Shown: piece after piece, positions 1-45,919 of the stretch | How positions within the stretch are numbered: position 1 is the first letter of the stretch | Layout of the letters: each line of letters opens with the position of its first letter | Source of the DNA: Lepidodermella squamata | Taxonomy: Eukaryota; Animalia; Gastrotricha | Length of the DNA: 64,000 nucleotides | Direction: 5' to 3' | NCBI GenBank assembly: GCA_047495785.1 | Contig: JBLDXI010000034.1 | Span: 1,302,001 to 1,366,000, forward strand | Position numbers and translations under genes: made by a program | The notes under the pieces: generated by a model | Seen by the model: only the letters and a program-made list of their open reading frames with translations | Told to the model about the DNA's origin: nothing | The model's database searches: none

Positions 1-169
1 CACATATCAGGTTTCCCGATAAAATGAGACTAGTGTCTGCAAATCTTTTGTTTGCATTTTCCGCTTCGAAGAAATATTATGTAATATTTGAAATTATTGA
101 AAAATTCCTAAAAAAAATTCGAGATTGAATTATTTTCAAATTTTGAATTATCATTCCATTTTATTTTAG

Positions 170-298
170 CGCCGTTGACGGATTGCGGCCCTGTGCCCGA
201 AATCGACTGGGCGCGAACCCGGTGCGCGTCAGCTACGAGTGCGAGTCCGACTTCACGCTCGAAGGCTCGTCGACGATCATCTGCCAGGAGGGCAAGTG
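170..298 (+). pseudogene. Sushi/CCP-domain exon of a host gene, frameshifted and cut off by the Polinton terminus
   Basis: After a ttttag acceptor (168-169) the exon reads PLTDCGPVPEIDW, then in another frame VRVSYECESDFTLEGSSTIICQEGK-TG. This matches the CCP pattern C..P.I...Y.C...F.L.G....C..G.W. The Trp codon is broken at 298/299 by the element end, creating TGA. Confidence 0.6.
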
Positions 299-320
299 AG
301 TAGTAAGGATGGGAACTTTG

Positions 321-490
321 GATCAGTAATAGCAGTACGGCGATTTTTACTATAGCCGTTTGGTATAAATATACGCAATTTGCGATCAGTAATGGCAGTA
401 CGGCGATTTTTACTATACCCGTTTGGTATAAATATACGCAATTTGGGGATGAGTAATAGCAGTACGGCGATTTGTACTATAGCCGCTTCT
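321..490 (+). repeat. Subterminal tandem repeat, about 2.7 copies of a 63-64 bp unit
   Basis: Units start at 321, 384 and 448: GAT(C/G)AGTAAT(A/G)GCAGTACGGCGATTT(T/G)TACTATA(G/C)CCG(TTTGGTATAAATATACGCAATTTG). Confidence 0.95.
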
Positions 491-751
491 TGTCAATATA
501 CCTTCGTTTTAACCCACTGCTATGATTTCACCTAACTAAAATAAACAAATCTTCGTTTTTTCACCTGTTATGAGCTAAACTAATCATTTTTACACTGCTT
601 CTTTAGTGCAGCTGCAATAGAGCCCTTTTTCATTCACACAAACACTTTTTATTAGTCTTAACGTTTCAAGCAATGAATTTATAGCTGGGATAAGTCTTAT
701 CAGTTTTTCTATTCATTTGTTCAGAGATTTGTAGCGGCTTGATTGGAGGGG

Positions 752-1255
752 TTAACGTCCAGATGAACCGAATCCGTTATCGCCACGGGTCGAATTTGCT
801 GCTAGAGCGTTTTTCAATGGCCCCGTTACCGTTACTGCAGATTCTAAGCGACCATATTTTAAACACACCAACTGGGTAATACGGTCGCCTATTTTAATCT
901 TGTAAGGTGTTTTGCTGTTGTTTGCAAGGCAGACTACGATTTTTCCGGTGTAGTCGGCGTCTTTAATTCATGAAAAATACAGATATTCATTAGTAATTTT
1001 CATTATTATTTGCTTCTTACCTATTACTCCAGCGACCGTATCGATTCCATGGTTGATGCTCATTCCTGATCGACTGAATAGTTGTCCATAATATCCTCGT
1101 GGTAAACAGATTTTAATATCAGTTTGAATCAGTCCCCTGGTTCCAGGTTGCAGTGTCGTCTCTTCTGCTGAATAGATGTCCCAACCCACAGAGCCTTTAG
1201 TATGCTTTGTCGGTTCTTTAGCTTTGTTACTTGTTAGCTCTACCTTCAGCTTCAT
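752..1255 (-). CDS. dUTPase (2 exons; intron 961-1020)
   Basis: All five dUTPase motifs appear after splicing: GWDIYS, SRSG, GVI|DADYTGKI, GDRITQLV, RGDNGFGSSG. Confidence 0.93.
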
Positions 1256-1425
1256 ATTTTATAATTTATATTGTTACTGAGGTTCGATTTTTATGTGAGC
1301 GGCTACCTCCTTTCAGGCATATTGTTTTTGTAATTCAATCTTCCTTAAAAATGCATTAGGGCCTTTAGCTCTGTTGACCCCTCAGTGCTGGCTTTAATGC
1401 TTTTCATCAAAGATTCTTGGTATTG

Positions 1426-1503
1426 TATACATCCTCCTTAATTGCTGTCGGTAATTCAATAAGAAAACATCATGTCAATAAATCTTATACATCCTCCCTA
1501 ATT
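1426..1503. promoter_or_regulatory. Direct repeat TATACATCCTCC(T/C)TAATT x2 in the divergent dUTPase/dNK intergenic region
   Basis: 18-bp near-perfect copies at 1426-1443 and 1486-1503. The regulatory role is inferred from position only. Confidence 0.4.
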
Positions 1504-1689
1504 AAACAATGCGATTTTTTACTTATCAAAATAAAAAGCAATTAGGATTTTTTACCCTTTACGGTGTAATTACCTTAAACAATTCAAACAAAACATCTCC
1601 CTGTTTTTTCCTTTTATGGAAATATCACTCAGACTATTTAAGAGAGATGCTTCAAGAATACACTTAGCATATTTCTTGAAGCAAGCTGG

Positions 1690-2454
1690 ATGCATCCTAA
1701 AGTCTACCATTTCGGCATAGTCGGCAACATTGGGGCGTAAGTCTCATATACTCCACCGAATAGAATTCTATTTAAAGTCTCTTGTTTTAGCGGGAAATCA
1801 ACCTTAATCGAGGGTCTCACTAATCTACCTTCACTCAACCGTAAACTTCAGGGATATACCGCGTGGCCAATTTGCGAGCCTGTTCATCGTTGGGAGTCCT
1901 TTACTGATGACGATAAAACTAACATTTTGAAAGATTACTATCAGATGAAAAATGCGTTCAACTTTCAAATTGTAGCCACGAGTGATATGTGCGGCCTTTA
2001 TTCAGCCCCTAACCACAAACCTGAAATCTACGGGGCGCATACTATCGTTCTGCATGATCGAACGCCCTTCTGTTCTAAAAACGTCTTTATCCCATGTGCG
2101 TATGCATCCAAGCGCATAAATTCTATCGAATATCACGCTCTCATGAATTTGTATGATAATTTCGAGCCGAATTTTGTAAAAACTGAAGCTATTATTTACT
2201 TGCGCTCCTCTCCCCAAATAGCTTGTCAAAGAGCCGTAGCTAGAGCTCGGGGTTCTGAAATGCTATTATCACTGGATTATTTACGCCTCGTACATGAGTT
2301 TCATGAAAAAATGTGTACTGTTGAGACTACAAACAAATCCCTACCATGTCCCGTGCTTGTTATCGACACTGATAATTTGAATGCCTCTGAGGTTCTAAAG
2401 CAAGCTTCTCAGTATGTTGCCTCTCTTATCACGCCTGTAATCTCTCAGACTTGA
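1690..2454 (+). CDS. Deoxynucleoside kinase (dNK family; 2 exons, intron 1737-1790)
   Basis: Splicing restores the P-loop GNIGA|GKST. Also present: EPVHRW, HDRTP (ERS-like motif), IYLRSSP, lid RARGSE and YLRLVHEFHE. Confidence 0.9.
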
Positions 2455-2464
2455 ATCCTCATTG

Positions 2465-2827
2465 ATGGATCCAACAAGACTTGTGCTCTCGAACAGCCAG
2501 ATTTTAGACGCTGAATCTTTGCAATGTCCAATTTGTTTATCTATCCTACTTAATCCTATTCAAACGCGCCCCTGTGGCCATTTATTTTGTACTAAATGTG
2601 TTCTCGCTATTTTTCAAAATTCAGCTCGAACAGTATGTTGCTGTCCACTTTGCCGCGAATCATTAACAGGGAAAGATTTCGTTAAACCCCCTGTAATTTT
2701 ATCGAACATTATCTCGAATTTGATTTACAAATGCCAATATTCTGATAAAGGCTGTCCCATTACTCTAACTTATGACCTCATTTTTGGGCATGAAAAGTTA
2801 TGCCAATATAAAGAACCCATCCCTTAA
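2465..2827 (+). CDS. TRAF-type C3HC4 RING finger plus zinc finger protein (putative E3 ligase)
   Basis: CPIC...PCGHLFCTKC...CPLCR followed by CQYSDKGC...HEKLCQY. Confidence 0.88.
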   Translation: MDPTRLVLSNSQILDAESLQCPICLSILLNPIQTRPCGHLFCTKCVLAIFQNSARTVCCCPLCRESLTGKDFVKPPVILSNIISNLIYKCQYSDKGCPITLTYDLIFGHEKLCQYKEPIP

Positions 2828-2869
2828 AGTTTTACATTCTTATTTCATTAGATTTAATTTTCAATAATC

Positions 2870-3391
2870 ATGGCTGAGGCGATAGTAGAATCTGCTAACC
2901 AGACAGTCAATCATCACATGTCTAGTAACTTGGTCATTCAACAGCATCCTCAGGATTCTAATCTCATCTACATAATGACTGATCGCAAAGATAAGAACGA
3001 TAAGCCTAAAAAACTCGCCTTTAGACAAGACGAATTTCTTAGCCAGTTCGTTCCTTATTTTCGACCGCCGAATGATGCTTGGGTTGCTCAGGCTCAACTT
3101 GCCCTGCTATCTCACAACACAGGCTTTAAATTTTCGATGCATGAATGCAAAATTGAAGTCTGTGTCTTTGTGCCATCATTTTCACCGATTCTTATAGATA
3201 TACGCAGGTTTTATCTGGATGCTAAAGGTATTTACTTCAAATTTACAGTAATAGCAATCTTTTTATGATTTAACTTTTTAGGAAATAAACAACCCTCAAG
3301 ACAAGGAGTCTCTCTTGATGCAGCTCAGTTTCAAGACCTTGCAACTGGGGTGTTAACTGTTGCAGCGATGATTGAAACAGCCAATGAATAA
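2870..3391 (+). CDS. PC4/Sub1-like ssDNA-binding protein (2 exons; intron 3228-3281)
   Basis: The spliced product reads IDIRRFYLDAK|GNKQPSRQGVSLDAAQFQDL, matching the PC4 motif DIR.(F/Y)...G...P.K.G(I/V)SL...Q(W/F)..L. Confidence 0.8.
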
Positions 3392-3508
3392 GCTAACACA
3401 AAACTTGACTAAAATGACTTACTGAATATTTATTTCAATCTATCCTTGTAATAAAGTTTTACCTCTTCCCAAATTCGATCAATTTTAAATTTTTAATCTT
3501 AGATTGTT

Positions 3509-6500
3509 ATGGATAACTATAGTTTACAATACTCATTTATTCGAAGTAATCGCCTGATTCATTCTACAAAATTCAAAATGTTTTCTGTGGAGTACTTCAT
3601 TCAGCCCGTAACATCCGACTTTGCCTCAACCTACATCAACAGATATGGCCAATCTTCTAGTTCGCTTGGGCCGATGATTCAATTGTCTGGTGGCGCTGAT
3701 GAACCTCGACTGGATAATATTCGATCATTTGTGCAGAACGTACCAGCCGACCAGGTGGCTAATATTGATTTGGAGACCCGCTTCAATATTCTGGCCAACT
3801 TCCTGTTCGATATTGTTGTAAATATCCATCGTGATTTACCTGTGAATTCCTTCTGCCGGCTAACACTGTACCACCCCGACTTGAAGATGCCTCTTAGCCT
3901 ACCCTTCATGAAACGCGATCGGTTGCTGGAAATTTCAATTTTTGATCAACTGAGAAAAATATTACAGAGTAATGAAGAACTCTCATTTGCTGGTCGGTGG
4001 ACAATTCGTCTCTGTGTCATTGATAACCCCAATGCAGATCTAGGTCAAATTGTTGGTGGTTCTCGGGCAGAGCGGGCTATAAACGAAACTTTGGACAAAT
4101 TTTTTCTTCGCTCCAAATCGATCGTTAGAATCGGAGCGCGCAAGAATGAAACGAACAATCTTTGCATGGGCAGAGCTCTCATCACTGGAGTGGCTTTGGC
4201 TCACATGAAGGCGAATCCTACGGATCCATCTCTTCAAGCAACCTTCAAATCGATACGTAGTACGCGAACCAATCGTCAATTTCGCGAAGCCACGGCGCTA
4301 TATCAGAAAGCGGGCTTACCTCTCAACCTTCCAGCCTACAATCTAGATGATCATTACTCAGCCCTGTGTTCGGCTATCGATCCTGAACATAATACTTACA
4401 GATTCGTAGTATACTCGTACGAATCACAGGATGTTATTAGGGAAATCCCAGAATTTGATCATCGCGTAAGCCTTGGGTTGCTTCCTGTTGTTCTACTGGT
4501 TTATCGCAACGACGTCTCTCAGCCCAACAGTCATCATTTTCATGTCATTGCGAATCTCAACTTTATGAAGGCCACTCTTAGCAATGCACAACGAATATGC
4601 CCCACTTGCTTTCAGACGAAAACGAGTACGGCTGTGCACAGATGCAAGTTGGCATGCTCTTCCTGCCGTAATTTTTACATGAAAAACCTGAATTTCACTT
4701 CTTTTATCATTAATATTATTTTAGGTGTATCAGGGAGCATTTGCCGTGTGATTTCCAACACAGACCAACAAAACTACACGCGGTGTCCGCAATGTCGTGC
4801 AGGTCTGATGTTTTTAACCTTTTCATTATTATTCAGCTCTTTTTATGTTTTTAGTTTTGTATAGCGAACGTTGTAAGCAAAACCACAAATGTGCTAAAAA
4901 GAATCCATGCTTTAAATGCGGGAGGAAATTTGTACATTTTCTCAAGCATGAGGCTATGTGTCCCGGGCGGCGCTGTCACATTTGTCAGGAGCCTTTGAAA
5001 GCCAGCGACGAAGAAAATGGCACACACTTCTGCTTCATGACTCCCTTGGTATACTCATTTTTTTCAGTCCAGCTTTTTTCAAAATACTGTGGTTGGTGTA
5101 TTTTTAGCCCTTGAAACCGGCGAATAAACTGGAACGTTATCGTAACCTAGTTTTTTGGGACACTGAGACATTTTCGCCATCACTTGCTGATAACAACAAT
5201 GAGTTCCAAGTATGCCTTATCGTTGCAAAGGTCGTATGCATACCTCACTGCATCGAAGCGAGGATTCAGCGATGCCATTCTAGTTGTGGACTTCATATTT
5301 TTTATGGAAGTCGTCCTCTGGAGGATTTCGTAAACTGGGTGCTTCTACCTATGAATTACCAGTCGATTTATTTGGCTCACAACTCAGCCAATTTCGATTC
5401 CTTATTATTACTGAAAGAAATTCAAACACGATGTTCTAAAGTGAAGATTCTTCAAAGGCAGGGATCTCTACTATGCATTGATTTCAAACAACAAAAAATC
5501 AGATTTTTGGATTCATATCTCTTTTTTCAATGCAGATTAAGGTAGGTTACCTAAGAAACACTAAGAAACTACATTGCTTACAGGTATTTGTTCAACAACA
5601 GGGATTTACCAGCAACAATGGGAATCCCAGACAAGAAAACCTTCTTTCCTTACGTCTTATGCACTAAAGAAAAGTAAGTACATCATCAACTTCTTGAGCT
5701 ATTGTGATTGAATTCGCTGTAATCCTTCGAGTTTCAATCTCGAATTCCCACAGCTGCCTAATATGATCTACTATGAGCCTGACAAAATGTCTCCTTCTGA
5801 AAGAGCAGAATTTCTAACTTTCTACAACGAAAACAAACTGAAACGGTTCAGTGTTCGCCACACGTTACTGCAATACTGCATACAGGATTGTCTAGTTTTG
5901 GAAAAGGCGTCAATCAAATTTCGGGCGCTAATGCTGGAGTTGTGTTCTACTGATGCCTTTAAAGAATGCATCACACTAGCTTCTCTCACAAGCACATGCT
6001 TCCGCAAGCTGTTTCTTACGAAGGATACATTACCTGTCATCCCGACCGCTGGCTACTGTGGCAAGGATTCACACAGCAGGCTCTCGATAGCTTTTCTTCA
6101 ATTTCTGATGGAGTCTGACCCTGAAACTTATGGTTCAATGAAACACGCTCAGAACTCACGTCAAGAAGTTCGAATATCTATACCTGGCCACCGTTATCCT
6201 TATCGCGTCGACGGTTTTGTTGCACGTCGTGATAAAATTCCGAGTGAACCCGATCTGATTGTCGAGGTTCATGGTTGTGCTGTCCATGGCTGCTTGCAAT
6301 GCTTTGAGGCCTCACAACTAAATTTTCTATCTGGACAACCAAACGGCGTAGTTTACAAGCAAACCTTGGAACGTGAAGAGTTGTTTCGCTCGAATGGTTA
6401 CATTCTTCAAAGCTTTTGGGAGCATGAAATTAGAGCTAGTTTCAAACAACACCCGAGAGCACAGGAGATTTATGATAATCTCACAATAGCTAATGTAATG

Positions 6501-8190
6501 GAGAGCCGTTCGTTTTTCTTTGGAGGTAACTGGAGGTTTTCCCTATTTAATCTTCGCGGGATTAAAACATCATGCCTACTTTTTAGGGCGGGTCGAAGCT
6601 TTTCGTTTAATGGCTATGATTGCCGAATCACACTCAACTTCAGGCGACCAAAATTTGGAAAAGATTGCTCAAATTTGTAAGGAAAGCGGGATGCAAACCA
6701 AGGACTTCTTATTTCCATCGCCCGATTATTCTATAATTTCCGCCGACTTCAACTCGTTATATCCAAGCTGTATGATGGATGGCTACTATGCAATAGGACC
6801 ACCTAAAGTATCCACCTTGGATCTCAGATTAAACAACGAGAAACTGCAGGAGATTTATTCAAAGGAATCTTTTTTTGGTGTCGTACAAGCACGCGTAAGC
6901 TCTTCGCATCTACATATCGTCTCCCTGCTTTCATCATCACCACATTATTTTGCTAGGTATTAGCGCCGAAAAACATCTGGCTACCTGTACTCTGCTTTCG
7001 TAGTAAACAAAACAAGCTCGTGTTCTCATGTTGCTATGCTTGTTCGTCGACTGCAAATCCAAACTTGTGCGTTTCAAGCCGTGAATGCACCCATTCTGAT
7101 TATGAAAGGTCCTGGATTGGTTCGTATTGCTCTGTGGAACTGAAGTACGCTACAGATGTTCATGGCTACAGATTGCTGGAAGTCTACGAGGTTAATAATT
7201 TTGTTTAGCCAACTCATGCATGGCTTCTATCAAGTTATTTTTTTTAGATATGGGAGTTCAAGAAGAGCAATACAATTTTCAGAGATTTCATTAAAAGATT
7301 CACCATTTTGAAGGCCGAATCCTCCGGCTGGCCGCCAAACTGTGCTACTAGTGAACAAAAAGCACAGTATTTGGAGCAATGGGAACGCATTGGTATAACG
7401 ATTGATAGCACCAAGTTGGATAAAAAGAACCCTGGGTTACGCGCGATCGCCAAATTAGTTTTGAACAGCTTTTTTGGTCGATTTGCTATGAATTCTAATC
7501 TAGAGAGAACAGATTATATCAAATCCCCGTTTCTGCTTCAGCAAATGCTAAATAATCCAGCTTTGGAAATTGTGGATATTCAACCACTAGGCTTACTCAT
7601 CAACTCTGATGATGTCTCTCGCTTGCGAATTGTAACACGGCCAACCAAAGATGCCGACGTTCCAAATGGATCCACCTCAGTTATAACAGCGGCCTTCGTA
7701 ACAGCTAATGCTCGTGTGAAACTGGCTCGTGAGCTGTACCGAGTCGGCCCAAAAAGTGCTATCTACAGCGGTTAGAGAATAGCGCCGCTTATGCTACCAA
7801 CATCTCTACGTTTTTTGTCTTTTGTTTTAGACACGGATTCAATTTTTTGCCTTCAAGGGCCTGGAATTACTAAAATTGAGTTCACACCCGTTCTTGGCGG
7901 CTTGGCGGATCAGCTTGATACAGGGCAACGCATCATTGCAATGGTTGTACTGGGCTGTAAGGCATATGCCCTACTTTTTGCTGACGGCAAAGCCAAGCTA
8001 ATGTTAAAGGTAATTGCTACTTGTTGTTACGCCCTCTGTTTTTTATTATTTACGTCACGCGCAGGGAATACGTCAAAGTTTTCATTCACGCAGTCTTCTC
8101 GATTTTTTCTTGTTCATCAAGCATGTAATACAAAGTCTCCACGATAACGAAACCAGCGGAAGCGGGGGCCGGGGTGATAACAACAAGTAG
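3509..8190 (+). CDS. Protein-primed family B DNA polymerase (Polinton pPolB), 11 exons, C-terminally truncated
   Basis: Introns at 4668-4724, 4803-4854, 5049-5107, 5542-5601, 5674-5731, 6526-6586, 6895-6956, 7191-7247, 7771-7830 and 8010-8064. Splicing gives one frame with ExoI WDTET, ExoII AHNSANFD, ExoIII YCIQD, FFG|GRVE, motif A DFNSLYPS, motif B KLVLNSFFGRF, motif C YS|DTDS, KAY and K|G. The start may be 3509 or 3578. Confidence 0.93.
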
Positions 8191-11100
8191 CAATTACCTT
8201 TAACATTAGCTTGGCTTTGCCGTCAGCAAAAAGTAGGGCATATGCCTTACAGCCCAGTACAACCATTGCAATGATGCGTTGCCCTGTATCAAGCTGATCC
8301 GCCAAGCCGCCAAGAACGGGTGTGAACTCAATTTTAGTAATTCCAGGCCCTTGAAGGCAAAAAATTGAATCCGTGTCTAAAACAAAAGACAAAAAACGTA
8401 GAGATGTTGGTAGCATAAGCGGCGCTATTCTCTAACCGCTGTAGATAGCACTTTTTGGGCCGACTCGGTACAGCTCACGAGCCAGTTTCACACGAGCATT
8501 AGCTGTTACGAAGGCCGCTGTTATAACTGAGGTGGATCCATTTGGAACGTCGGCATCTTTGGTTGGCCGTGTTACAATTCGCAAGCGAGAGACATCATCA
8601 GAGTTGATGAGTAAGCCTAGTGGTTGAATATCCACAATTTCCAAAGCTGGATTATTTAGCATTTGCTGAAGCAGAAACGGGGATTTGATATAATCTGTTC
8701 TCTCTAGATTAGAATTCATAGCAAATCGACCAAAAAAGCTGTTCAAAACTAATTTGGCGATCGCGCGTAACCCAGGGTTCTTTTTATCCAACTTGGTGCT
8801 ATCAATCGTTATACCAATGCGTTCCCATTGCTCCAAATACTGTGCTTTTTGTTCACTAGTAGCACAGTTTGGCGGCCAGCCGGAGGATTCGGCCTTCAAA
8901 ATGGTGAATCTTTTAATGAAATCTCTGAAAATTGTATTGCTCTTCTTGAACTCCCATATCTAAAAAAAATAACTTGATAGAAGCCATGCATGAGTTGGCT
9001 AAACAAAATTATTAACCTCGTAGACTTCCAGCAATCTGTAGCCATGAACATCTGTAGCGTACTTCAGTTCCACAGAGCAATACGAACCAATCCAGGACCT
9101 TTCATAATCAGAATGGGTGCATTCACGGCTTGAAACGCACAAGTTTGGATTTGCAGTCGACGAACAAGCATAGCAACATGAGAACACGAGCTTGTTTTGT
9201 TTACTACGAAAGCAGAGTACAGGTAGCCAGATGTTTTTCGGCGCTAATACCTAGCAAAATAATGTGGTGATGATGAAAGCAGGGAGACGATATGTAGATG
9301 CGAAGAGCTTACGCGTGCTTGTACGACACCAAAAAAAGATTCCTTTGAATAAATCTCCTGCAGTTTCTCGTTGTTTAATCTGAGATCCAAGGTGGATACT
9401 TTAGGTGGTCCTATTGCATAGTAGCCATCCATCATACAGCTTGGATATAACGAGTTGAAGTCGGCGGAAATTATAGAATAATCGGGCGATGGAAATAAGA
9501 AGTCCTTGGTTTGCATCCCGCTTTCCTTACAAATTTGAGCAATCTTTTCCAAATTTTGGTCGCCTGAAGTTGAGTGTGATTCGGCAATCATAGCCATTAA
9601 ACGAAAAGCTTCGACCCGCCCTAAAAAGTAGGCATGATGTTTTAATCCCGCGAAGATTAAATAGGGAAAACCTCCAGTTACCTCCAAAGAAAAACGAACG
9701 GCTCTCCATTACATTAGCTATTGTGAGATTATCATAAATCTCCTGTGCTCTCGGGTGTTGTTTGAAACTAGCTCTAATTTCATGCTCCCAAAAGCTTTGA
9801 AGAATGTAACCATTCGAGCGAAACAACTCTTCACGTTCCAAGGTTTGCTTGTAAACTACGCCGTTTGGTTGTCCAGATAGAAAATTTAGTTGTGAGGCCT
9901 CAAAGCATTGCAAGCAGCCATGGACAGCACAACCATGAACCTCGACAATCAGATCGGGTTCACTCGGAATTTTATCACGACGTGCAACAAAACCGTCGAC
10001 GCGATAAGGATAACGGTGGCCAGGTATAGATATTCGAACTTCTTGACGTGAGTTCTGAGCGTGTTTCATTGAACCATAAGTTTCAGGGTCAGACTCCATC
10101 AGAAATTGAAGAAAAGCTATCGAGAGCCTGCTGTGTGAATCCTTGCCACAGTAGCCAGCGGTCGGGATGACAGGTAATGTATCCTTCGTAAGAAACAGCT
10201 TGCGGAAGCATGTGCTTGTGAGAGAAGCTAGTGTGATGCATTCTTTAAAGGCATCAGTAGAACACAACTCCAGCATTAGCGCCCGAAATTTGATTGACGC
10301 CTTTTCCAAAACTAGACAATCCTGTATGCAGTATTGCAGTAACGTGTGGCGAACACTGAACCGTTTCAGTTTGTTTTCGTTGTAGAAAGTTAGAAATTCT
10401 GCTCTTTCAGAAGGAGACATTTTGTCAGGCTCATAGTAGATCATATTAGGCAGCTGTGGGAATTCGAGATTGAAACTCGAAGGATTACAGCGAATTCAAT
10501 CACAATAGCTCAAGAAGTTGATGATGTACTTACTTTTCTTTAGTGCATAAGACGTAAGGAAAGAAGGTTTTCTTGTCTGGGATTCCCATTGTTGCTGGTA
10601 AATCCCTGTTGTTGAACAAATACCTGTAAGCAATGTAGTTTCTTAGTGTTTCTTAGGTAACCTACCTTAATCTGCATTGAAAAAAGAGATATGAATCCAA
10701 AAATCTGATTTTTTGTTGTTTGAAATCAATGCATAGTAGAGATCCCTGCCTTTGAAGAATCTTCACTTTAGAACATCGTGTTTGAATTTCTTTCAGTAAT
10801 AATAAGGAATCGAAATTGGCTGAGTTGTGAGCCAAATAAATCGACTGGTAATTCATAGGTAGAAGCACCCAGTTTACGAAATCCTCCAGAGGACGACTTC
10901 CATAAAAAATATGAAGTCCACAACTAGAATGGCATCGCTGAATCCTCGCTTCGATGCAGTGAGGTATGCATACGACCTTTGCAACGATAAGGCATACTTG
11001 GAACTCATTGTTGTTATCAGCAAGTGATGGCGAAAATGTCTCAGTGTCCCAAAAAACTAGGTTACGATAACGTTCCAGTTTATTCGCCGGTTTCAAGGGC

Positions 11101-12698
11101 TAAAAATACACCAACCACAGTATTTTGAAAAAAGCTGGACTGAAAAAAATGAGTATACCAAGGGAGTCATGAAGCAGAAGTGTGTGCCATTTTCTTCGTC
11201 GCTGGCTTTCAAAGGCTCCTGACAAATGTGACAGCGCCGCCCGGGACACATAGCCTCATGCTTGAGAAAATGTACAAATTTCCTCCCGCATTTAAAGCAT
11301 GGATTCTTTTTAGCACATTTGTGGTTTTGCTTACAACGTTCGCTATACAAAACTAAAAACATAAAAAGAGCTGAATAATAATGAAAAGGTTAAAAACATC
11401 AGACCTGCACGACATTGCGGACACCGCGTGTAGTTTTGTTGGTCTGTGTTGGAAATCACACGGCAAATGCTCCCTGATACACCTAAAATAATATTAATGA
11501 TAAAAGAAGTGAAATTCAGGTTTTTCATGTAAAAATTACGGCAGGAAGAGCATGCCAACTTGCATCTGTGCACAGCCGTACTCGTTTTCGTCTGAAAGCA
11601 AGTGGGGCATATTCGTTGTGCATTGCTAAGAGTGGCCTTCATAAAGTTGAGATTCGCAATGACATGAAAATGATGACTGTTGGGCTGAGAGACGTCGTTG
11701 CGATAAACCAGTAGAACAACAGGAAGCAACCCAAGGCTTACGCGATGATCAAATTCTGGGATTTCCCTAATAACATCCTGTGATTCGTACGAGTATACTA
11801 CGAATCTGTAAGTATTATGTTCAGGATCGATAGCCGAACACAGGGCTGAGTAATGATCATCTAGATTGTAGGCTGGAAGGTTGAGAGGTAAGCCCGCTTT
11901 CTGATATAGCGCCGTGGCTTCGCGAAATTGACGATTGGTTCGCGTACTACGTATCGATTTGAAGGTTGCTTGAAGAGATGGATCCGTAGGATTCGCCTTC
12001 ATGTGAGCCAAAGCCACTCCAGTGATGAGAGCTCTGCCCATGCAAAGATTGTTCGTTTCATTCTTGCGCGCTCCGATTCTAACGATCGATTTGGAGCGAA
12101 GAAAAAATTTGTCCAAAGTTTCGTTTATAGCCCGCTCTGCCCGAGAACCACCAACAATTTGACCTAGATCTGCATTGGGGTTATCAATGACACAGAGACG
12201 AATTGTCCACCGACCAGCAAATGAGAGTTCTTCATTACTCTGTAATATTTTTCTCAGTTGATCAAAAATTGAAATTTCCAGCAACCGATCGCGTTTCATG
12301 AAGGGTAGGCTAAGAGGCATCTTCAAGTCGGGGTGGTACAGTGTTAGCCGGCAGAAGGAATTCACAGGTAAATCACGATGGATATTTACAACAATATCGA
12401 ACAGGAAGTTGGCCAGAATATTGAAGCGGGTCTCCAAATCAATATTAGCCACCTGGTCGGCTGGTACGTTCTGCACAAATGATCGAATATTATCCAGTCG
12501 AGGTTCATCAGCGCCACCAGACAATTGAATCATCGGCCCAAGCGAACTAGAAGATTGGCCATATCTGTTGATGTAGGTTGAGGCAAAGTCGGATGTTACG
12601 GGCTGAATGAAGTACTCCACAGAAAACATTTTGAATTTTGTAGAATGAATCAGGCGATTACTTCGAATAAATGAGTATTGTAAACTATAGTTATCCAT
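8178..12698 (-). pseudogene. Mirror copy of pPolB, cut inside intron 10
   Basis: Identical to the left copy up to ...KLMLK|gtaattgctacttgttgtta, then runs into the antisense of the spacer and lacks exon 11. Confidence 0.9.
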
Positions 12699-12815
12699 AA
12701 CAATCTAAGATTAAAAATTTAAAATTGATCGAATTTGGGAAGAGGTAAAACTTTATTACAAGGATAGATTGAAATAAATATTCAGTAAGTCATTTTAGTC
12801 AAGTTTTGTGTTAGC

Positions 12816-13337
12816 TTATTCATTGGCTGTTTCAATCATCGCTGCAACAGTTAACACCCCAGTTGCAAGGTCTTGAAACTGAGCTGCATCAAGAGAGACT
12901 CCTTGTCTTGAGGGTTGTTTATTTCCTAAAAAGTTAAATCATAAAAAGATTGCTATTACTGTAAATTTGAAGTAAATACCTTTAGCATCCAGATAAAACC
13001 TGCGTATATCTATAAGAATCGGTGAAAATGATGGCACAAAGACACAGACTTCAATTTTGCATTCATGCATCGAAAATTTAAAGCCTGTGTTGTGAGATAG
13101 CAGGGCAAGTTGAGCCTGAGCAACCCAAGCATCATTCGGCGGTCGAAAATAAGGAACGAACTGGCTAAGAAATTCGTCTTGTCTAAAGGCGAGTTTTTTA
13201 GGCTTATCGTTCTTATCTTTGCGATCAGTCATTATGTAGATGAGATTAGAATCCTGAGGATGCTGTTGAATGACCAAGTTACTAGACATGTGATGATTGA
13301 CTGTCTGGTTAGCAGATTCTACTATCGCCTCAGCCAT
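12816..13337 (-). CDS. PC4-like ssDNA-binding protein (mirror copy)
   Basis: Mirror of 2870-3391. Confidence 0.8.
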
Positions 13338-13379
13338 GATTATTGAAAATTAAATCTAATGAAATAAGAATGTAAAACT

Positions 13380-13742
13380 TTAAGGGATGGGTTCTTTATA
13401 TTGGCATAACTTTTCATGCCCAAAAATGAGGTCATAAGTTAGAGTAATGGGACAGCCTTTATCAGAATATTGGCATTTGTAAATCAAATTCGAGATAATG
13501 TTCGATAAAATTACAGGGGGTTTAACGAAATCTTTCCCTGTTAATGATTCGCGGCAAAGTGGACAGCAACATACTGTTCGAGCTGAATTTTGAAAAATAG
13601 CGAGAACACATTTAGTACAAAATAAATGGCCACAGGGGCGCGTTTGAATAGGATTAAGTAGGATAGATAAACAAATTGGACATTGCAAAGATTCAGCGTC
13701 TAAAATCTGGCTGTTCGAGAGCACAAGTCTTGTTGGATCCAT
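13380..13742 (-). CDS. TRAF-type RING finger protein (mirror copy)
   Basis: Mirror of 2465-2827 with identical translation. Confidence 0.88.
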   Translation of the reverse strand: MDPTRLVLSNSQILDAESLQCPICLSILLNPIQTRPCGHLFCTKCVLAIFQNSARTVCCCPLCRESLTGKDFVKPPVILSNIISNLIYKCQYSDKGCPITLTYDLIFGHEKLCQYKEPIP

Positions 13743-13752
13743 CAATGAGGAT

Positions 13753-14517
13753 TCAAGTCTGAGAGATTACAGGCGTGATAAGAGAGGCAACATACTGAGA
13801 AGCTTGCTTTAGAACCTCAGAGGCATTCAAATTATCAGTGTCGATAACAAGCACGGGACATGGTAGGGATTTGTTTGTAGTCTCAACAGTACACATTTTT
13901 TCATGAAACTCATGTACGAGGCGTAAATAATCCAGTGATAATAGCATTTCAGAACCCCGAGCTCTAGCTACGGCTCTTTGACAAGCTATTTGGGGAGAGG
14001 AGCGCAAGTAAATAATAGCTTCAGTTTTTACAAAATTCGGCTCGAAATTATCATACAAATTCATGAGAGCGTGATATTCGATAGAATTTATGCGCTTGGA
14101 TGCATACGCACATGGGATAAAGACGTTTTTAGAACAGAAGGGCGTTCGATCATGCAGAACGATAGTATGCGCCCCGTAGATTTCAGGTTTGTGGTTAGGG
14201 GCTGAATAAAGGCCGCACATATCACTCGTGGCTACAATTTGAAAGTTGAACGCATTTTTCATCTGATAGTAATCTTTCAAAATGTTAGTTTTATCGTCAT
14301 CAGTAAAGGACTCCCAACGATGAACAGGCTCGCAAATTGGCCACGCGGTATATCCCTGAAGTTTACGGTTGAGTGAAGGTAGATTAGTGAGACCCTCGAT
14401 TAAGGTTGATTTCCCGCTAAAACAAGAGACTTTAAATAGAATTCTATTCGGTGGAGTATATGAGACTTACGCCCCAATGTTGCCGACTATGCCGAAATGG
14501 TAGACTTTAGGATGCAT
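13753..14517 (-). CDS. Deoxynucleoside kinase (mirror copy)
   Basis: Mirror of 1690-2454. Confidence 0.9.
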
Positions 14518-14951
14518 CCAGCTTGCTTCAAGAAATATGCTAAGTGTATTCTTGAAGCATCTCTCTTAAATAGTCTGAGTGATATTTCCATAAAAGGAAA
14601 AAACAGGGAGATGTTTTGTTTGAATTGTTTAAGGTAATTACACCGTAAAGGGTAAAAAATCCTAATTGCTTTTTATTTTGATAAGTAAAAAATCGCATTG
14701 TTTAATTAGGGAGGATGTATAAGATTTATTGACATGATGTTTTCTTATTGAATTACCGACAGCAATTAAGGAGGATGTATACAATACCAAGAATCTTTGA
14801 TGAAAAGCATTAAAGCCAGCACTGAGGGGTCAACAGAGCTAAAGGCCCTAATGCATTTTTAAGGAAGATTGAATTACAAAAACAATATGCCTGAAAGGAG
14901 GTAGCCGCTCACATAAAAATCGAACCTCAGTAACAATATAAATTATAAAAT

Positions 14952-15455
14952 ATGAAGCTGAAGGTAGAGCTAACAAGTAACAAAGCTAAAGAACCGACAA
15001 AGCATACTAAAGGCTCTGTGGGTTGGGACATCTATTCAGCAGAAGAGACGACACTGCAACCTGGAACCAGGGGACTGATTCAAACTGATATTAAAATCTG
15101 TTTACCACGAGGATATTATGGACAACTATTCAGTCGATCAGGAATGAGCATCAACCATGGAATCGATACGGTCGCTGGAGTAATAGGTAAGAAGCAAATA
15201 ATAATGAAAATTACTAATGAATATCTGTATTTTTCATGAATTAAAGACGCCGACTACACCGGAAAAATCGTAGTCTGCCTTGCAAACAACAGCAAAACAC
15301 CTTACAAGATTAAAATAGGCGACCGTATTACCCAGTTGGTGTGTTTAAAATATGGTCGCTTAGAATCTGCAGTAACGGTAACGGGGCCATTGAAAAACGC
15401 TCTAGCAGCAAATTCGACCCGTGGCGATAACGGATTCGGTTCATCTGGACGTTAA
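14952..15455 (+). CDS. dUTPase (mirror copy; intron 15187-15246)
   Basis: Mirror of 752-1255. Ends RGDNGFGSSGR* with AATAAA near 15554. Confidence 0.93.
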
Positions 15456-15716
15456 CCCCTCCAATCAAGCCGCTACAAATCTCTGAACAAATGAATAGAA
15501 AAACTGATAAGACTTATCCCAGCTATAAATTCATTGCTTGAAACGTTAAGACTAATAAAAAGTGTTTGTGTGAATGAAAAAGGGCTCTATTGCAGCTGCA
15601 CTAAAGAAGCAGTGTAAAAATGATTAGTTTAGCTCATAACAGGTGAAAAAACGAAGATTTGTTTATTTTAGTTAGGTGAAATCATAGCAGTGGGTTAAAA
15701 CGAAGGTATATTGACA

Positions 15717-15886
15717 AGAAGCGGCTATAGTACAAATCGCCGTACTGCTATTACTCATCCCCAAATTGCGTATATTTATACCAAACGGGTATAGTAAAAA
15801 TCGCCGTACTGCCATTACTGATCGCAAATTGCGTATATTTATACCAAACGGCTATAGTAAAAATCGCCGTACTGCTATTACTGATC
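15717..15886 (-). repeat. Subterminal 63-bp tandem repeats (mirror copy)
   Basis: Mirror of 321-490. Confidence 0.95.
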
Positions 15887-15908
15887 CAAAGTTCCCATCC
15901 TTACTACT

Positions 15909-16552
15909 CACGACTGATCTTCCATTTCAAGTGAGGCGAAGGAGGATTTTGGGTGTAGGCCTCTTTCTCTCTCGTCAGAGCGCTTTTGCCACGAGATACT
16001 AACTGAGAGAACACAAGATTATTGAAAGAAATGGTATGAAATCGTTCCTACCTGATCAACACTTTCAGGTCTGCTGTCCAAGACTTGCCGAAGTCGCTCA
16101 GCAGTTTCTCGGCGTAGATTCTCCGACTCCTTCGAGGAAATTTGCTAAAAATGCATGAAGTTGGGACGTGGACTTCATACCTGAAATCTCTGCTCGGCCT
16201 CGGCCACTTTTCGATCATTCGTCATTTTGTATGTCATAAATTGTTCTTCCAGCTTTGAGATCATTTGTGTAAGTTGCTGCTTCAGGACCATCATTTCACT
16301 CTTCAAAGCCGAGTTTTCCTTCCGCAACTTTGTTAAAGAAAAGTTATATACGAAACACCTCGAAAATTAATTTGAGACCTTGTCGATTAGATAGTCTTTA
16401 TTGGATTCAATTGTTTGAGGACTAGAATCTGCCCCGCTGTAATCGCGGCTTCGGGCTCTCACTGCGCTTCGAGATGTCAAAATCGGCTCGGCAAGCACAA
16501 AGAAGGGATGTCCACCCGCGGTCGAAAACCTCGCAACCCCAGTCAGCGCCAT
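15909..16552 (-). pseudogene. 5' part of a host coiled-coil gene interrupted by the right Polinton terminus
   Basis: Four exons joined by short GT-AG introns read in frame: ...DYLIDK|LRKENSALKSEMMVLKQQL...EQRFQ|QISSKESENLRRETAERL...VDQ|LVSRGKSAL...HLKWKISR. The frame then hits AGTAGT without a stop codon of its own. Confidence 0.6.
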
Positions 16553-16910: not shown

Positions 16911-18457
16911 TTACGAATTTTTAGCCGAGGTTTTGACGAAAACGGTTTTCGTCTCAAGGTAGGCGTCCAAGCCTTCCTCGCCCTTCTCTCGACCCCAGCC
17001 GCTCATCTTGTAGCCACCGAATGGCGCACCATCGCTACCAACACCGTAGCAGTTAACCCAGACAGTTCCAGCTCTGAGTCCCTCGCTAATGTAATTGATG
17101 GTGTCAACATTCTTCGAGAAAACAGCAGAGCCAAGGCCATACGACGTATTGTTGGCTCGCTCAATGACTTCGTCCAAAGTCGAAAATTTCAGAATTTGCA
17201 TGACCGGGCCGAAAATTTCCTCCCTAGCAATGCGCATGTCGTCCTTGACATCGGCGAACACAGTTGGCTCGAAGAAATTGCCCTTGCCAGCGATACGTTT
17301 GCCGCCGCATTTCAGAGTCGCGCCCTCCTTGATGCCGGATTCCACGAGCTCAGCGATCTTCTTCATTGATGGTTCATCGATTTGAGCACCCTGTTCAACG
17401 CCGATTTCAAACGGATCGCCAACCGTGCGCTTCTTGGCACGAGCAGCACTGGCTTCGACAAATTTGTCGTAGATAGACTCGTGGACGAAGGTTCGCGAGC
17501 CAGCAAGGCAGCATTGCCCTTGATTGAAGAAAAGCGCTTGGTGGGAAGCTTCAACAGCGTAGTCAACTGAAACAAAAGCTTTTTTATCAGAGGCGATCTT
17601 CCGAGCATAAACTTACAATCAGCATCCTCGCAAACAATGTTAGGACTCTTGCCTCCCAACTCCAGGGTTACTCGCTTTAAATTGGTCGCTCCAGCGGCTT
17701 GGGCAATCAAACGGCCAACTTCAGTCGAGCCAGTGAAGCTGAGCTTATCAACATCCATATGGTTCGACAAAGCAGCGCCGGCAGTTGGGCCATAGCCAGA
17801 CACGATGTTGACAACGCCATCAGGAAAACCCGCTTCCTTCGTCAAATGAGCGACGTACAAAGCCGATAGTGGTGATTGTTCAGCCGTCTTCATGACAACT
17901 GTGCAACCAGCAGCCAAGGCCGGGGCCAACTTCATCGACTGCAGCAACAGCGGGAAGTTCCATGGGACGATGAGACCGGCAACTCCCTTAGGCTCGCGAC
18001 GGGTGTAGCAGAAAAATGGACCTTCCGTTGGAATGGTCTTTCCGCAGATTTTGTCAGCCAATCCTCCGCAGTAGCGGTAGTAGTTGATCGCGATTTGAAG
18101 ATCGACCAAGTAAGCTTCAGCGTACGGCTTTCCGACGTTCAGAGTCTCGAGCGAGGCTAGGTATTGGCGGTCACGTTCGATCAAGTCAGCGAGTTTAGCA
18201 AGCAGACGGCCTCGTTGCACCGGGTCCATGGTTCGCCATGGTGAGTTGAGCGCGAACGCCTTGCGCGCTGCTTTCACAGCGACGTCGATATCCTCGGCAA
18301 GACCTTCGGCAACGTCGCAGATTTTCTCGCCTGTTGCTGGGTTGATGGCCGGGAATGTTTTGCCACTGATTGACGGCACCCATTGGTTGTTGATGAAGTG
18401 CTGGGTGAATTTCACTTCAGGGTTGCGATTCGGTGGTGGAACTTGTGGTGCTGCCAT
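16911..18457 (-). CDS. Aldehyde dehydrogenase, ALDH1/2 family, no presequence (cytosolic-type); intron 17567-17616
   Basis: [18 protein letters not shown], catalytic FNQGQCC, EEIFGP and PFGGYKMSG motifs. Confidence 0.95.
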
Positions 18458-19927
18458 TTTTTGGTTTAATTCGGGCAAAAAAGCGGTTTGTACCGGTGAT
18501 GCGCAATTGTGCGCGCTTTATACAGCCAACTTCAGTTGATAAAAAAATAACGGAATGAACGCGATAAAGCTTATTAATCCAAACCATTTGAGATAAAATG
18601 TCCAAACCAGCTGTCTCGGTGATAAACCCAGATTGGGGACGTCCGGAAAATAAATCAGTTAAAAAGGGCAGCTCGAAAATGGCACCTTTGCTAATTGAAG
18701 CCGGTTGTGTTGATGATAAGGCCAGGTTGCTATTAACATCGTTCGTGACGCTGCCTATCATTCCATTTGGCTGTAACTTCTTCCAGTGTGTCATAAGAAG
18801 TAGAAAATATCGCATAACGGAGCACTATGGCGATATACTGTCAGATCGGGAGAATTTTACAGTCGGGGTCACTTTGACATGCCGAAATGGGGCGAATTCA
18901 GCAAATTGGAACATGGCTAGGCGAAAACGCTTTGAAAGCCCAGGAAAATTGGAAAAATAATTTGATTTTTGAACGAATTTCGAGGACTCAGCAGCTGGAC
19001 GGTTTCCATCAAAATAACGAAATTGTTTCATTTTTAGAAGCCCTCTTTGGAGTCCGGCTGTATTAATACTTATTTCAAATTTCAAATTTCGAAGCTTTCC
19101 ATCAAGCACTTCCGCTAGCTATAAAGACTTCAATTGAGCACTTTTCGCGGACTGAGGTAAATATCTCAATGTTGTCGGCTTCAAATCTATATCTTTGAAA
19201 TATGCATTTTCATCGAAGTGTCAAGCAGGTCGACAGTTTTAGAACGGAAATTGCTCATTAAGATTCCTATCCACGTCGCGGCGAGTTTCAATATCGGGCG
19301 TCAATTTCAAAAATAAGTAATTAGAACTTGGATGAGGGATTTCTGCTTATATTCGCATATAGTAATGCCATAATACCAGCGTGCGAAACATGTTGAACTT
19401 CGACCACCATGTGAACCGATGCTGTTATTTGCGGTCATCATTTCAAATTAATTACCTGTTCAACTGCAAATAAATTAAGGCAATCCCATTCATCCGTGAT
19501 GTGGTATAAACATAGGCGCGGCTTATCGCTACTGCAACTGGTATATTTACACACCACCGAAAAAAAACGTTAACCACGCCACATAGCAGCCTCGTTACTG
19601 GCATAATGAAGATACGTCTGCTTATCTTCCTATCGAGTACCGCAAATTTACCCTGTTTTCTGCTACGAGAGGAGAGCCGATAAGGCTCGTTAAGCACCCT
19701 AGATAAAAAACTGCCAGTCATGTCCAAACAAATAGGTAAAGAGATACTACGAGAGCAAAAAAGGCTGTGCTTTATTTCGCCGGAAGAAAAACAAGTGACT
19801 CCCTAAAATATTTGACGAGAAAAAATGCAAGTGTTGTGAATCCTCAATCAAAAAAAATATAGGCACACGGTCGATTTTCATAAATCAAGAAGAAAAACCA
19901 GTTATTTTAATCTCAGCAGCAGTTTTT

Positions 19928-21584
19928 TTACGAATTCTTCTGCGGAACCTTGGTGATGACGCATTTCGGCTCGGTGTACGCTTCGATGCCGTAGTCGCCC
20001 TTCTCACGACCCCAGCCGCTCATCTTGAAACCGCCGAACGGCGCCTGGTCCGAGAAAATATCATAGCAATTGACCCAAACAGTTCCAGCGCGAACGCCTT
20101 GAGTCAAATAGTTGATCTTATCGACGTCACTCGAGAAAATAGCCGCTGCCAAGCCGTAGGAAGTCTTATTCGCACGCTCGATAACTTCATCGAGCTTCTT
20201 GAACTTCAAAATCTGCATAACCGGGCCGAAGATCTCCTCACGGGCGATCGTCATATCGTCCTTGACGTCGGAGAAAACGGTCGGGGCAACGAAGTAACCC
20301 TTCGATCCGACACGGCTGCCGCCAGTGTGGAGCACGGCGCCTTCCTTCTTGCCGGTTTCGATGAGGCCGAGAATCTTCTTCATCTGGCTTTCATCGACCT
20401 GGGGGCCTTGCTCGTTCTTCGGGTCGAACGGGTCGCCAACAGTGCGCTTCTTCGCGCGAGCAACGCTAGCCTCGACGAACTTGTCGTAGATCGATTCTTC
20501 AACAAAAGTCCTCGAACCAGCGGTGCAGCACTGGCCTTGGTTGAAGAACAGACCGAAGTGAGCCTGTTCGACGGCGTAGTCGAAGTCGCAGTCAGCGAGG
20601 ATGATGTTAGGGCTCTTGCCGCCGAGCTCAAGGGTAACACGCTTCAAATTGCTTTGAACAGCCATTTCAGCGACCTTGACACCAATCTCCGTCGAGCCGG
20701 TGAAAGCAACCTTATCAACGTCAGGATGGCGGGCAAGGGCAGCACCAGCAGTTGGGCCGTAACCCGAAACGATGTTGATGACACCTTCGGGGAAACCGGC
20801 TTCCTTGGCGAGGTTAGCGACGTATAGAGCAGAAAGGGGGGTCTGCTCTGCAGTCTTCATAACAACAGTGCAACCTGCTGCGAGGGCTGGTCCTAGTTTC
20901 CAAGCTTGCATCAGAAGAGGGAAGTTCCACGGGATGATCTGACCAACAACTCCCTTTGGTTCATGGCGAGTGTATGCAAAGAAGTCGCCATCTGTTATTA
21001 CAATGTTATAATTAGTTAAATGTCAGAGCCATAAGAACTCACCAACAGGGATGACTTTGCCCTGAATTTTATCCGCAATACCAGCGTAGTAACGAAGATG
21101 GCTGATCGAAAGCGGAACATCAATGTTGTATGAGGCAGAGTAGGGCTTGCCGTTATCGAGAGTCTCCAGCGACTAATAGGAAACAAAAAAATTTTAGGAT
21201 CCAAACGCAATCGGCCAAACACACCGCAATATAACGACGATCGCGCTCCATCAAATCTGCGAGTTTGTACAAGAGGCGACCACGCTGTGATGCGTCCATA
21301 CGGCGCCAAGGCGAGCCAAGACGAAAAGCATCACGCGCAGCAGCGACAGCCTTGTCGATTTCGGCCTTGTCGCCCTCGGCAACTTCGACTATTTTCTCGC
21401 CTGTCGCTGGGTTCAAAACAGGGAAAGTCTTCTTGCTTGCCGACTCAACCCACTCGTTGTTGATGAAATGCTTGACATATTTTATTTCCGGCTTGCGGAT
21501 CGGCTCAGCAATAGCAGCCGCAGACAAAGCACGGGCAGGAGTGAATCGGGCAGCAAATGCTGCACCACGGATGAGGCTCGACAT
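19928..21584 (-). CDS. ALDH2: Mitochondrial-type aldehyde dehydrogenase (ALDH2-like); introns 20992-21042, 21173-21224
   Basis: Arg/Ala-rich presequence [21 protein letters not shown], plus [29 protein letters not shown] and EEIFGP. Confidence 0.9.
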
Positions 21585-45303: not shown

Positions 45304-45919
45304 TCTAAGGTTATTGAAACTTGATCAATTGTGAAGATTTAGGGGTTCCCCTAGCCTATTTATACTGCTGGGTGCAGTCTGCGAAAACAACTGTCGGCAT
45401 GTCGGAGCTTCCCACGCCGTGAGCATTTTTTTACCAGCTTCGTAATCGGTCTCGTGATTTTTGAGGGGGTAAGAAAAAACAAAAATAATAGAGCCTTATC
45501 GCATGGAAACACTACGTCTCACTGGGTGGGAAAGTTACGCCCAGGGTTTTAGAACTGGTTTCATGCTGAAGGAATCCGTTTTGCAATGTCTGGTTTGTTA
45601 TCTAACGCACGTGGATGAAATTCGTCGCATTCAAGAACAAAACAGTGTCCCATGACGTCACACAGCGTCTGAAAGGAGGCAAATCATGGTGTGACTATTG
45701 CTATCTAAATGTAAATAAACAATAAAAAACTTGCACCTATGGAAGAAGTTCGCTCAAAATTCGGCGAGGGCAAAATGGACAGAAAACACACTTCTCGAAT
45801 TTCAAAACAGAAAACGTGACTTTATTAAATAATTTCGAGCGGCTGTTGTGTAAAAATAATTCTACCAGAAAAAGCAAACGGAAACAACAAAATATTCACC
45901 GGGAAAGGTTCATTCCCAC

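What the first reader, a model, noticed from the sequence alone, without database searches (positions are those of the whole stretch)
299..15908. 15.6-kb palindromic 'snap-back' Polinton: replication half duplicated head-to-head, virion/integration half missing
Seen: two apparently identical 7.73-kb inverted arms around a 148-bp spacer, both ends AGTAGT, and only replication/nucleotide genes present. Established: Polintons are about 15-20 kb with TIRs usually under about 1 kb and normally encode integrase, packaging ATPase, adenain protease and capsid proteins. Inference: a template switch during protein-primed strand-displacement replication copied back along the nascent strand. The product has two intact origins/integrase ends and near unit length, like copy-back or snap-back defective-interfering viral genomes, and could be mobilised in trans by a helper Polinton. 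The main alternative is an amplification or assembly fold-back artefact.
Basis: partly seen in the sequence, partly recalled or inferred. Interest (0 to 1): 0.9.

Follow-up and report, generated by a model that had tools for sequence, protein, structure and literature searches.

The report
Fold-back mis-join of an active Polinton
The mirror-image virus-like element is in the assembled sequence, but it lacks the insertion footprint and its central junction is not seen in contigs of three public runs, so it is likely a sequencing and assembly composite of an actively expressed, intron-rich Polinton rather than a newly integrated defective virus.

Summary
The palindrome is in the window: two 7,734-bp arms, 0 mismatches, 148-bp spacer, AGTAGT termini. 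It is not one integrated element. There is no target-site duplication. The left end cuts a sushi-domain exon whose continuation in run X1 is not the window's right flank; the right end cuts a predicted, unrelated gene running the other way. The spacer is native polymerase gene. In 3 of 3 laid runs the element carries on past 8186 into sequence absent from the window, and no contig covers the turn. The turn sits on a 9-bp inverted microhomology, as in amplification chimeras and in true snap-backs. Best reading (0.57): a fold-back chimeric read bridged the left halves of two separate insertions of a young multi-copy Polinton. An in-vivo snap-back molecule with mis-assigned flanks (0.24) or a real rearrangement (0.15) is not excluded, because contigs drop rare junctions. 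What is solid is the parent: a divergent Polinton with short terminal repeats (inferred), dUTPase, kinase and RING genes, and 13 spliced introns shown in cDNA-like contigs.

The parts
171..298 (+). Host exon with sushi/CCP domain, cut by the element after 298 (insertion site A)
   Evidence: Pfam Sushi E=1e-4; X1 contig leaves the window after 298 and continues the exon in frame
293..298 (+). 6-bp target of site A (CAAGTG); not repeated at the window's right end
   Evidence: X1 loose end of 24 nt ends 30 nt after 292, as a 6-bp duplication would cause in a 31-mer graph (inference)
299..8029 (+). Left arm = left half of the Polinton, starting AGTAGT
299..438 (.). True terminal inverted repeat of the parent, about 77-140 bp (inferred)
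   Evidence: contigs diverge into one other sequence at 375 (X1, X3) or 438 (X2), one 63-bp period apart (table 7)
320..485 (.). 63-bp tandem array, 2.6 copies (mirrored at 15722-15887)
755..1255 (-). dUTPase, one intron 961-1020; T-run at 487 marks a poly(A) end
   Evidence: Pfam E=9e-15 and 5e-10 for the two exons; splice joint and T-run in X2
1690..2454 (+). Deoxynucleoside kinase, one intron 1737-1790 (start codon inferred)
   Evidence: Pfam dNK E=1e-18; joint in X2 and X3
2465..2827 (+). RING-finger protein
   Evidence: Pfam zf-C3HC4 E=4e-7
2870..3391 (+). Spliced ORF (intron 3228-3281), possibly PC4-like single-strand-binding protein
   Evidence: joint in X2 and X3; PC4 only E=0.12, below cut-off; Atlas uninformative
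3509..8186 (+). Protein-primed PolB, 11 exons, no stop in 1,365 codons, then cut by the fold-back (stop at 8188-8190)
   Evidence: DNA_pol_B_2 hits in separate exons; 10 joints in X2; exon phases; nearest relatives 25-41% identical over exon 6
8021..8029 (+). First half of the 9-bp inverted microhomology (inside the last intron)
8030..8177 (+). 148-bp spacer: native end of intron 8010-8064 plus native exon 11
   Evidence: covered unbroken by X1 contig 7354-8186 and spliced at 8010-8064 in X2, X3
8178..8186 (+). Second half of the microhomology; the fold-back junction
   Evidence: loose end at 8186 in X1, X2, X3; no contig depth over 8187-8215
8178..15908 (-). Right arm: exact reverse complement of the left half; its polymerase copy stops inside the last intron
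15909..16552 (-). Predicted 4-exon host gene (coiled-coil-like) reading into the element and cut at 15909 (insertion site B)
   Evidence: 169 codons, GT..AG introns of 51, 36, 49 nt, all phase 0, no stops; only sub-threshold Pfam hits; not checked against RNA

Best explanation
The window holds a perfect 7.7-kb inverted duplication of a Polinton's left half with no target-site duplication, and it is likely a composite: a fold-back chimeric read, probably made by a strand-displacing polymerase during amplification or library making, that the assembler likely used to join two separate insertions of a young multi-copy element. Steps: (1) shown: a spliced, expressed parent whose polymerase runs on past 8186; (2) shown: the turn lies on a 9-bp inverted repeat 148 bp apart; (3) inferred: a displaced 3' end ending in the second 9-mer primed on the first and copied back towards the left terminus; (4) inferred: because copies are near-identical, reads from site A (sushi exon) and site B (minus-strand gene) overlapped the two arms of that read, giving flank A - left half - inverted left half - flank B.
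For: No TSD. X1 shows the left flank continuing with sequence that occurs nowhere in the window, in frame with the sushi exon, and the right flank is a different predicted gene cut in the opposite direction. The X1 loose end at 298 is 24 nt, i.e. ends 30 = k-1 letters after the start of the 6-mer, the pattern expected if a normal TSD-bounded right junction of site A exists in that run (inference). 3 of 3 runs leave the window at 8186 into one shared sequence; X1's contig is unbroken from 7354 to 634 nt beyond. Last-bin depths 1368, 43.5, 10.1 equal the native contigs alone (1533.3x240/269, 63.3x185/269, 14.7x185/269), so 0 contigs cover 8187-8215. Zero mismatches in 7,734 bp. Element depth in X1 is 1533-2186 against 91 in the flank bin, so many near-identical templates are likely (depth is not a copy number). 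Junction type matches phi29 chimeras: 406 of 475 inverted, 2-21-nt complementarity, mostly <10 kb apart (PMC1855051); such reads cause long-read misassemblies.
Against: Library type of X1 is not on record, so amplification is assumed, not shown. Only contigs were available; they drop rare variants, and a one-copy junction beside a 1,500-deep path could be pruned, so the missing junction only shows that it is not a major form. The same microhomology is what an in-vivo switch would use. The X1 empty-site contig may come from a paralogous sushi exon (other diverged sushi pieces are laid at 160, 220-287). Depth falls linearly from the terminus inward (r=-0.994, 8 contigs), which terminus-anchored snap-backs in the cell would produce. 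Unchecked earlier notes describe real palindromic Polinton families in other animals. X1 may be the sample behind the window and is then not independent.
Confidence: 0.57

Rival explanations
1. The junction is biological: the element's own protein-primed polymerase switched template at the 9-bp repeat and made a left-left snap-back genome, free or integrated (for instance at site A with a proper TSD); only the pairing with flank B is an assembly swap across 7.7 kb of identical arm.
For: Polymerase is expressed and spliced (X2, X3). The 9-bp stem is predicted to pair at 0.84-0.997 in the isolated 172-nt strand. Linear end-to-centre depth decline independent of GC (partial r=-0.992). The k-1 signature at site A cannot tell a right end from a second left end, as the terminal 77 bp are shared. 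Snap-back genomes are a major class in AAV (PMC8235507, passages); phi29 and pGKL1 inverted dimers are recalled, not read. Earlier AI notes on palindromic Polinton families, unchecked.
Against: No contig with the junction in 3 of 3 runs; it is 1 of 8 comparable inverted repeats in 500-8186, so nothing marks it as special; a real integrated palindrome at ordinary depth should be bridged to its true flanks by long reads (inference; read length unknown); smooth depth gradients also arise from amplification bias.
Confidence: 0.24
2. The whole structure is a real chromosome rearrangement: two inverted insertions (A and B) lost everything between the two 9-mers, which are direct repeats across inverted copies, or a snap-back molecule was integrated end by end at two sites.
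For: Explains no TSD, two cut genes, exact termini at both flanks and the microhomology with no technical error. Polintons have driven inversions at C. elegans eri-6/7 (PMC11414722, passages). Geometry resembles Tn10 nearly precise excision (recalled).
Against: Would remove the 3' parts of two genes; a 7.7-kb perfect inverted repeat with a 148-bp spacer is expected to be unstable (own knowledge); X1 hints that site A has a normal downstream junction; no junction contig.
Confidence: 0.15
3. As first proposed: one palindromic defective element integrated as a unit at this site by a helper's integrase.
For: Near-unit length, both ends AGTAGT; the inverted repeat extends 3 bp outside both ends, and CAAGTGAG recurs at 15928, 19 bp beyond the right end (3 copies on the plus strand of the window).
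Against: No abutting TSD; the sequence after the second CAAGTG is not the sushi continuation seen in X1 and lies inside the right-hand reading frame; a third X1 site ends in TCCAGA, so GTG is no fixed target.
Confidence: 0.04

Closest known systems
Polintons/Mavericks of animals (Eupolintoviridae, adintovirus type); 10.1101/2023.08.22.554363 and PMC8097293, passages read
   Same: Protein-primed PolB, (AGT)2//(ACT)2 termini, short TIR and probable 6-bp TSD in the parent; a possible VSR-type insert in PolB (motif recalled; only its two nearest homologs hit Vsr, E about 0.013).
   Different: The window has two left halves, no TSD and none of the integrase/virion genes. The parent has 13 introns in its left half, whereas intact vertebrate elements are described as intronless (PMC8097293); PolB exon 6 is 25-41% identical to the 150 best library hits.
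Inverted chimeras of multiple displacement amplification (PMC1855051, first of four parts read; PMC13265396 and 10.64898/2026.06.11.730069, passages)
   Same: Inversion with a short unduplicated spacer, primed on 9 nt of complementarity, partners 148 bp apart, no mismatch between arms.
   Different: One chimera copies one molecule and would mirror the flank too; here the mirror stops at the element ends, so a second error (join to another insertion) is required.
Snap-back defective genomes of linear DNA replicons: AAV (PMC8235507, passages); phi29 palindromic replicons and pGKL1 inverted dimers (recalled; not held)
   Same: One terminus and its adjacent genes duplicated in inverted orientation with an asymmetric loop.
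   Different: Those were shown as molecule populations; here no run shows the junction and the piece is embedded between two unrelated host loci.
Intron-bearing eupolintoviruses of dinoflagellates (PMC12166617, passages)
   Same: Spliceosomal introns inside a Polinton-type element.
   Different: There the introns are introner transposons; here the 13 introns are no more alike than shuffles (best local score 10 vs 11.5) and the host looks like an animal.

Membership tests
Polinton/Maverick | Protein-primed PolB | tested here: met
   DNA_pol_B_2 hits in exons, E 5e-7 to 7e-8; 1,972 library clusters at E<=0.001
Polinton/Maverick | (AGT)2 terminal motif | tested here: met
   299 and 15908; independent junction at 299 in X1
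Polinton/Maverick | TIR of about 100-1,500 bp with unique interior | tested here: not met
   Window: 7.7-kb arms. Parent inferred to have about 77-140 bp
Polinton/Maverick | 5-8-bp target-site duplication | tested here: not met
   CAAGTG vs CACGAC; a 6-bp TSD at site A is only inferred from a contig end in X1
Polinton/Maverick | Integrase, packaging ATPase, protease, capsid genes | tested here: not met
   None among the ORFs scanned in the window element. The parent's right half was not examined
Integrated snap-back (defective interfering) genome | One terminus duplicated in inverted orientation via a short inverted repeat | tested here: met
Integrated snap-back (defective interfering) genome | Junction exists in independent molecules in vivo | tested here: inconclusive
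   0 of 3 runs show it, but these are contigs, which drop rare variants
Integrated snap-back (defective interfering) genome | Single integration site | tested here: not met
   two different flanking loci, no TSD
Integrated snap-back (defective interfering) genome | Helper-dependent replication or interference | not testable with these tools
   no data
Amplification fold-back chimera | Inversion on 2-21 nt complementarity between partners <10 kb apart | tested here: met
   9 nt, 148 bp against PMC1855051
Amplification fold-back chimera | Amplified library and junction confined to one or few reads | not testable with these tools
   library not on record, no raw reads served

The most novel reading that the evidence does not exclude
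This animal carries a Polinton that is replicating at high copy and sheds a swarm of terminus-anchored snap-back genomes with scattered turn points, which would give the linear end-to-centre depth decline; the window caught one of them, and such molecules would be the birth stage of palindromic Polinton satellites and direct evidence for protein-primed strand-displacement replication of an animal Polinton in vivo.
Probability: 0.2. Interest if true: 0.8.

Novelty: not a real feature. Interest (0 to 1): 0.3.

Why it matters
As filed, it is mostly a warning: perfect giant palindromes bounded by Polinton ends can be produced by one fold-back read plus a repeat mis-join, and a missing TSD with two cut genes exposes them. 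The by-product is real and useful: an animal Polinton that is spliced, polyadenylated, without listed letter differences inside the element in three runs dated 2014-2024, and inserted into exons, so probably active now. Polinton replication has mostly been inferred from sequence; a host with an active element makes it testable from raw reads. If the junctions prove to arise in the cell, they would show how fold-back Polinton satellites originate.

Tried and rejected
No whole genome is held for this window, so other copies could not be counted. Viral-contig scans with exon 6 and with a 3-sequence alignment found no relative (7 and 69 pattern matches, 0 confirmed). An 18-nt terminus scan of metagenomes gave 7 loci, 0 of 7 similar to the window by blastn or tblastn. 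Solved-structure search with exon 6: nothing. Atlas for the fourth ORF: scores <=0.85, uninformative. Vsr insert: no direct hit in Pfam, NCBIfam or PHROGs above noise. Rejected: that both ends sit at GTGAGT splice donors (X1 shows the left exon continuing through TG|G); GC bias as cause of the depth gradient (r=-0.49, partial 0.14); introner origin of the introns. Nine paper searches (listings only unless cited as read) listed no report of an integrated snap-back Polinton; the library lacks most subscription papers, three wanted papers or ids were not held, and no supplements were opened.
Full report
1. Observation. A self-alignment of the window gives one long match: 296-8029 against 15911-8178, 7,734 bp, 100% identical, no gaps. 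The spacer is 8030-8177. The element proper starts AGTAGT at 299 and ends ACTACT at 15908, the commonest Maverick end motif (PMC8097293, passages); a contig in run X1 joins different DNA to the element exactly at 299, confirming the terminus. Each arm carries dUTPase, deoxynucleoside kinase, a RING protein, an ORF with a sub-threshold PC4 match and a protein-primed PolB. No integrase, ATPase, protease or capsid family was hit.

2. The flanks are two loci. Polintons make 5-8-bp target-site duplications (10.1101/2023.08.22.554363, passages). The 6 bp outside the ends are CAAGTG and CACGAC. The left flank is a sushi-domain exon (E=1e-4). An X1 contig follows it to 298 and continues for 24 nt with letters found nowhere in the window, in frame with the exon. 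The right flank models as a different four-exon gene on the minus strand, 169 codons without a stop, that reads into the element and is cut at 15909 (prediction, not checked against RNA). So two genes run into the element from both sides and neither has its 3' part here. The 24-nt loose end stops 30 letters after position 292; in a graph of 31-letter words that is where a contig must end if a second path (element end plus duplicated 6-mer) enters, so X1 probably also holds a normal, TSD-bounded far junction for this site. This is inference from one contig end, which could belong to a paralogous exon. The right flank has not been laid with reads.

3. The centre. One run search listed 4 runs, 3 holding the stretch (0.87, 0.77, 0.30 of words; three studies). 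I laid those 3 on 1-8215. All 3 follow the window through the spacer to 8186 and then leave it into one shared sequence; the X1 contig 7354-8186 goes on for 634 nt unbroken. So the spacer is native (end of the last intron plus exon 11), and 8178-8186 is both native and the reverse complement of 8021-8029: a 9-bp inverted microhomology. It is 1 of 8 such repeats (>=9 bp, <=300 bp apart) in 500-8186 and is predicted to pair in the isolated strand. The mean depth of the last bin equals the native contig alone in each run (1368.0, 43.5, 10.1), so no contig covers 8187-8215. Contigs drop rare variants, so this shows that the junction is not a major form, not that it is absent. Both polymerase copies in the window are cut: the left leaves native sequence at 8186 and stops at 8188-8190, the right ends inside the last intron; the homolog P0001 has about 80 residues after the position of exon 10.

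4. The parent. Contigs diverge from the left terminus into one other sequence at 375 (X1, X3) or 438 (X2), one repeat period apart, so the real TIR is likely 77-140 bp and the window has two left ends. Of 14 joints listed, 13 are spliceosomal introns of 52-62 nt (13 in X2, 5 in X3, none in X1); the polymerase has 11 exons and no stop in 1,365 codons up to 8186. A T-run at 487 marks a poly(A) end for dUTPase. No letter differences inside the element were listed in any of the 3 runs, although 29 of 136 X1 pieces were under 99% alike. X1 depth on the element is 1533-2186 against 91 in the flank bin (17-24 times; summed contig depth, not a copy number), and falls linearly inward (r=-0.994, partial on GC -0.992; the 8 contigs shown). 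Exon 6 of the polymerase has 1,972 relatives at E<=0.001, the best 150 at 25-41% identity. The host looks like an animal with short introns. The right half of the parent was not examined, so its integrase and capsid genes are untested.

5. Mechanism. Shown: parent continues; junction on a 9-bp inverted repeat; no TSD; left flank continues elsewhere. Inferred: a displaced 3' end folded back and copied towards the left end, and the flanks come from two insertions. A fold-back of one chromosomal molecule would mirror the flank too, and it does not, so a second event is needed in every scenario. Best (0.57): the switch was made by a strand-displacing polymerase in the tube and the assembler joined sites A and B through that read. 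In MDA 406 of 475 chimeras were inversions, most primed on 2-21 nt and under 10 kb apart (PMC1855051, first of four parts read); about a third of mitochondrial reads were palindromic in amplified tardigrades (PMC13265396, passages); long-read assemblers misassemble such data (10.64898/2026.06.11.730069, passages). Whether this assembly came from amplified DNA is not on record. Rival (0.24): the element's own polymerase made the switch in the cell and only the flank pairing is wrong; the depth slope, AAV snap-backs (PMC8235507, passages) and unchecked earlier notes of palindromic Polinton families in other animals favour this and raised my odds for it. Rival (0.15): a real deletion between two inverted insertions, for which the 9-mers are direct repeats; Polintons have rearranged the C. 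elegans eri-6/7 locus (PMC11414722, passages).

6. Comparison and novelty. The arm is a Polinton left half by polymerase and termini; the window structure fails TSD, TIR size and core-gene tests and should not be filed as an integrated Polinton or a defective-interfering genome. It works like a snap-back in geometry only. Nine searches listed no integrated snap-back Polinton, within a library that lacks most subscription papers. Introns in Polintons are unusual in print (none in intact vertebrate elements; introners in dinoflagellate elements, PMC12166617, passages; PMC8502044, passages gave nothing on spliced introns) but earlier AI notes of this scan report several intron-rich ones, so the parent is a new member of a recurring kind. 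Verdict: probably not a real feature as assembled; interest 0.3, with a 0.2 chance of an in-vivo snap-back population worth 0.8.

Noticed in passing
window 755-8186: 13 spliceosomal introns of 52-62 nt in the element's left half (10 in PolB), all 13 spliced in X2 and 5 of 13 in X3; similar in size to the modelled host introns next door.
   Followed up: yes
window 419-8186: X1 contig depth falls almost linearly from 2186 to 1533 with distance from the terminus (r=-0.994, 8 longest contigs shown of 136 laid); cause unexplained.
   Followed up: partly
window 3505-3596: One X2 contig changes strand between 3505 and 3596 (depth 20.8), a small fold-back at the start of the polymerase gene; may be a cDNA artefact.
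   Followed up: no
window 56942-57217: 276-bp non-coding element with terminal inverted repeats of roughly 80 bp; MITE-like.
   Followed up: no
window 16911-21599: Two aldehyde dehydrogenase-like genes in tandem on the minus strand (names from reading the ORFs, not scanned).
   Followed up: no
window 43898-45324: Gene made of several cysteine-rich repeats resembling thyroglobulin type-1 domains (recalled, not scanned).
   Followed up: no
window 52796-54694: Intronless 632-codon ORF with a P-loop GTPase-like N-terminus and a C-x2-C motif in an otherwise intron-rich region.
   Followed up: no
window 45920-47359: Glutaminase matching mammalian kidney-type enzyme over 447 residues including the C-terminal part (E 7e-186), used as a sign of an animal host.
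   Followed up: partly
window 15928-15935: CAAGTGAG, identical to 293-300 at the left junction, recurs 19 bp beyond the right end; probably chance.
   Followed up: partly
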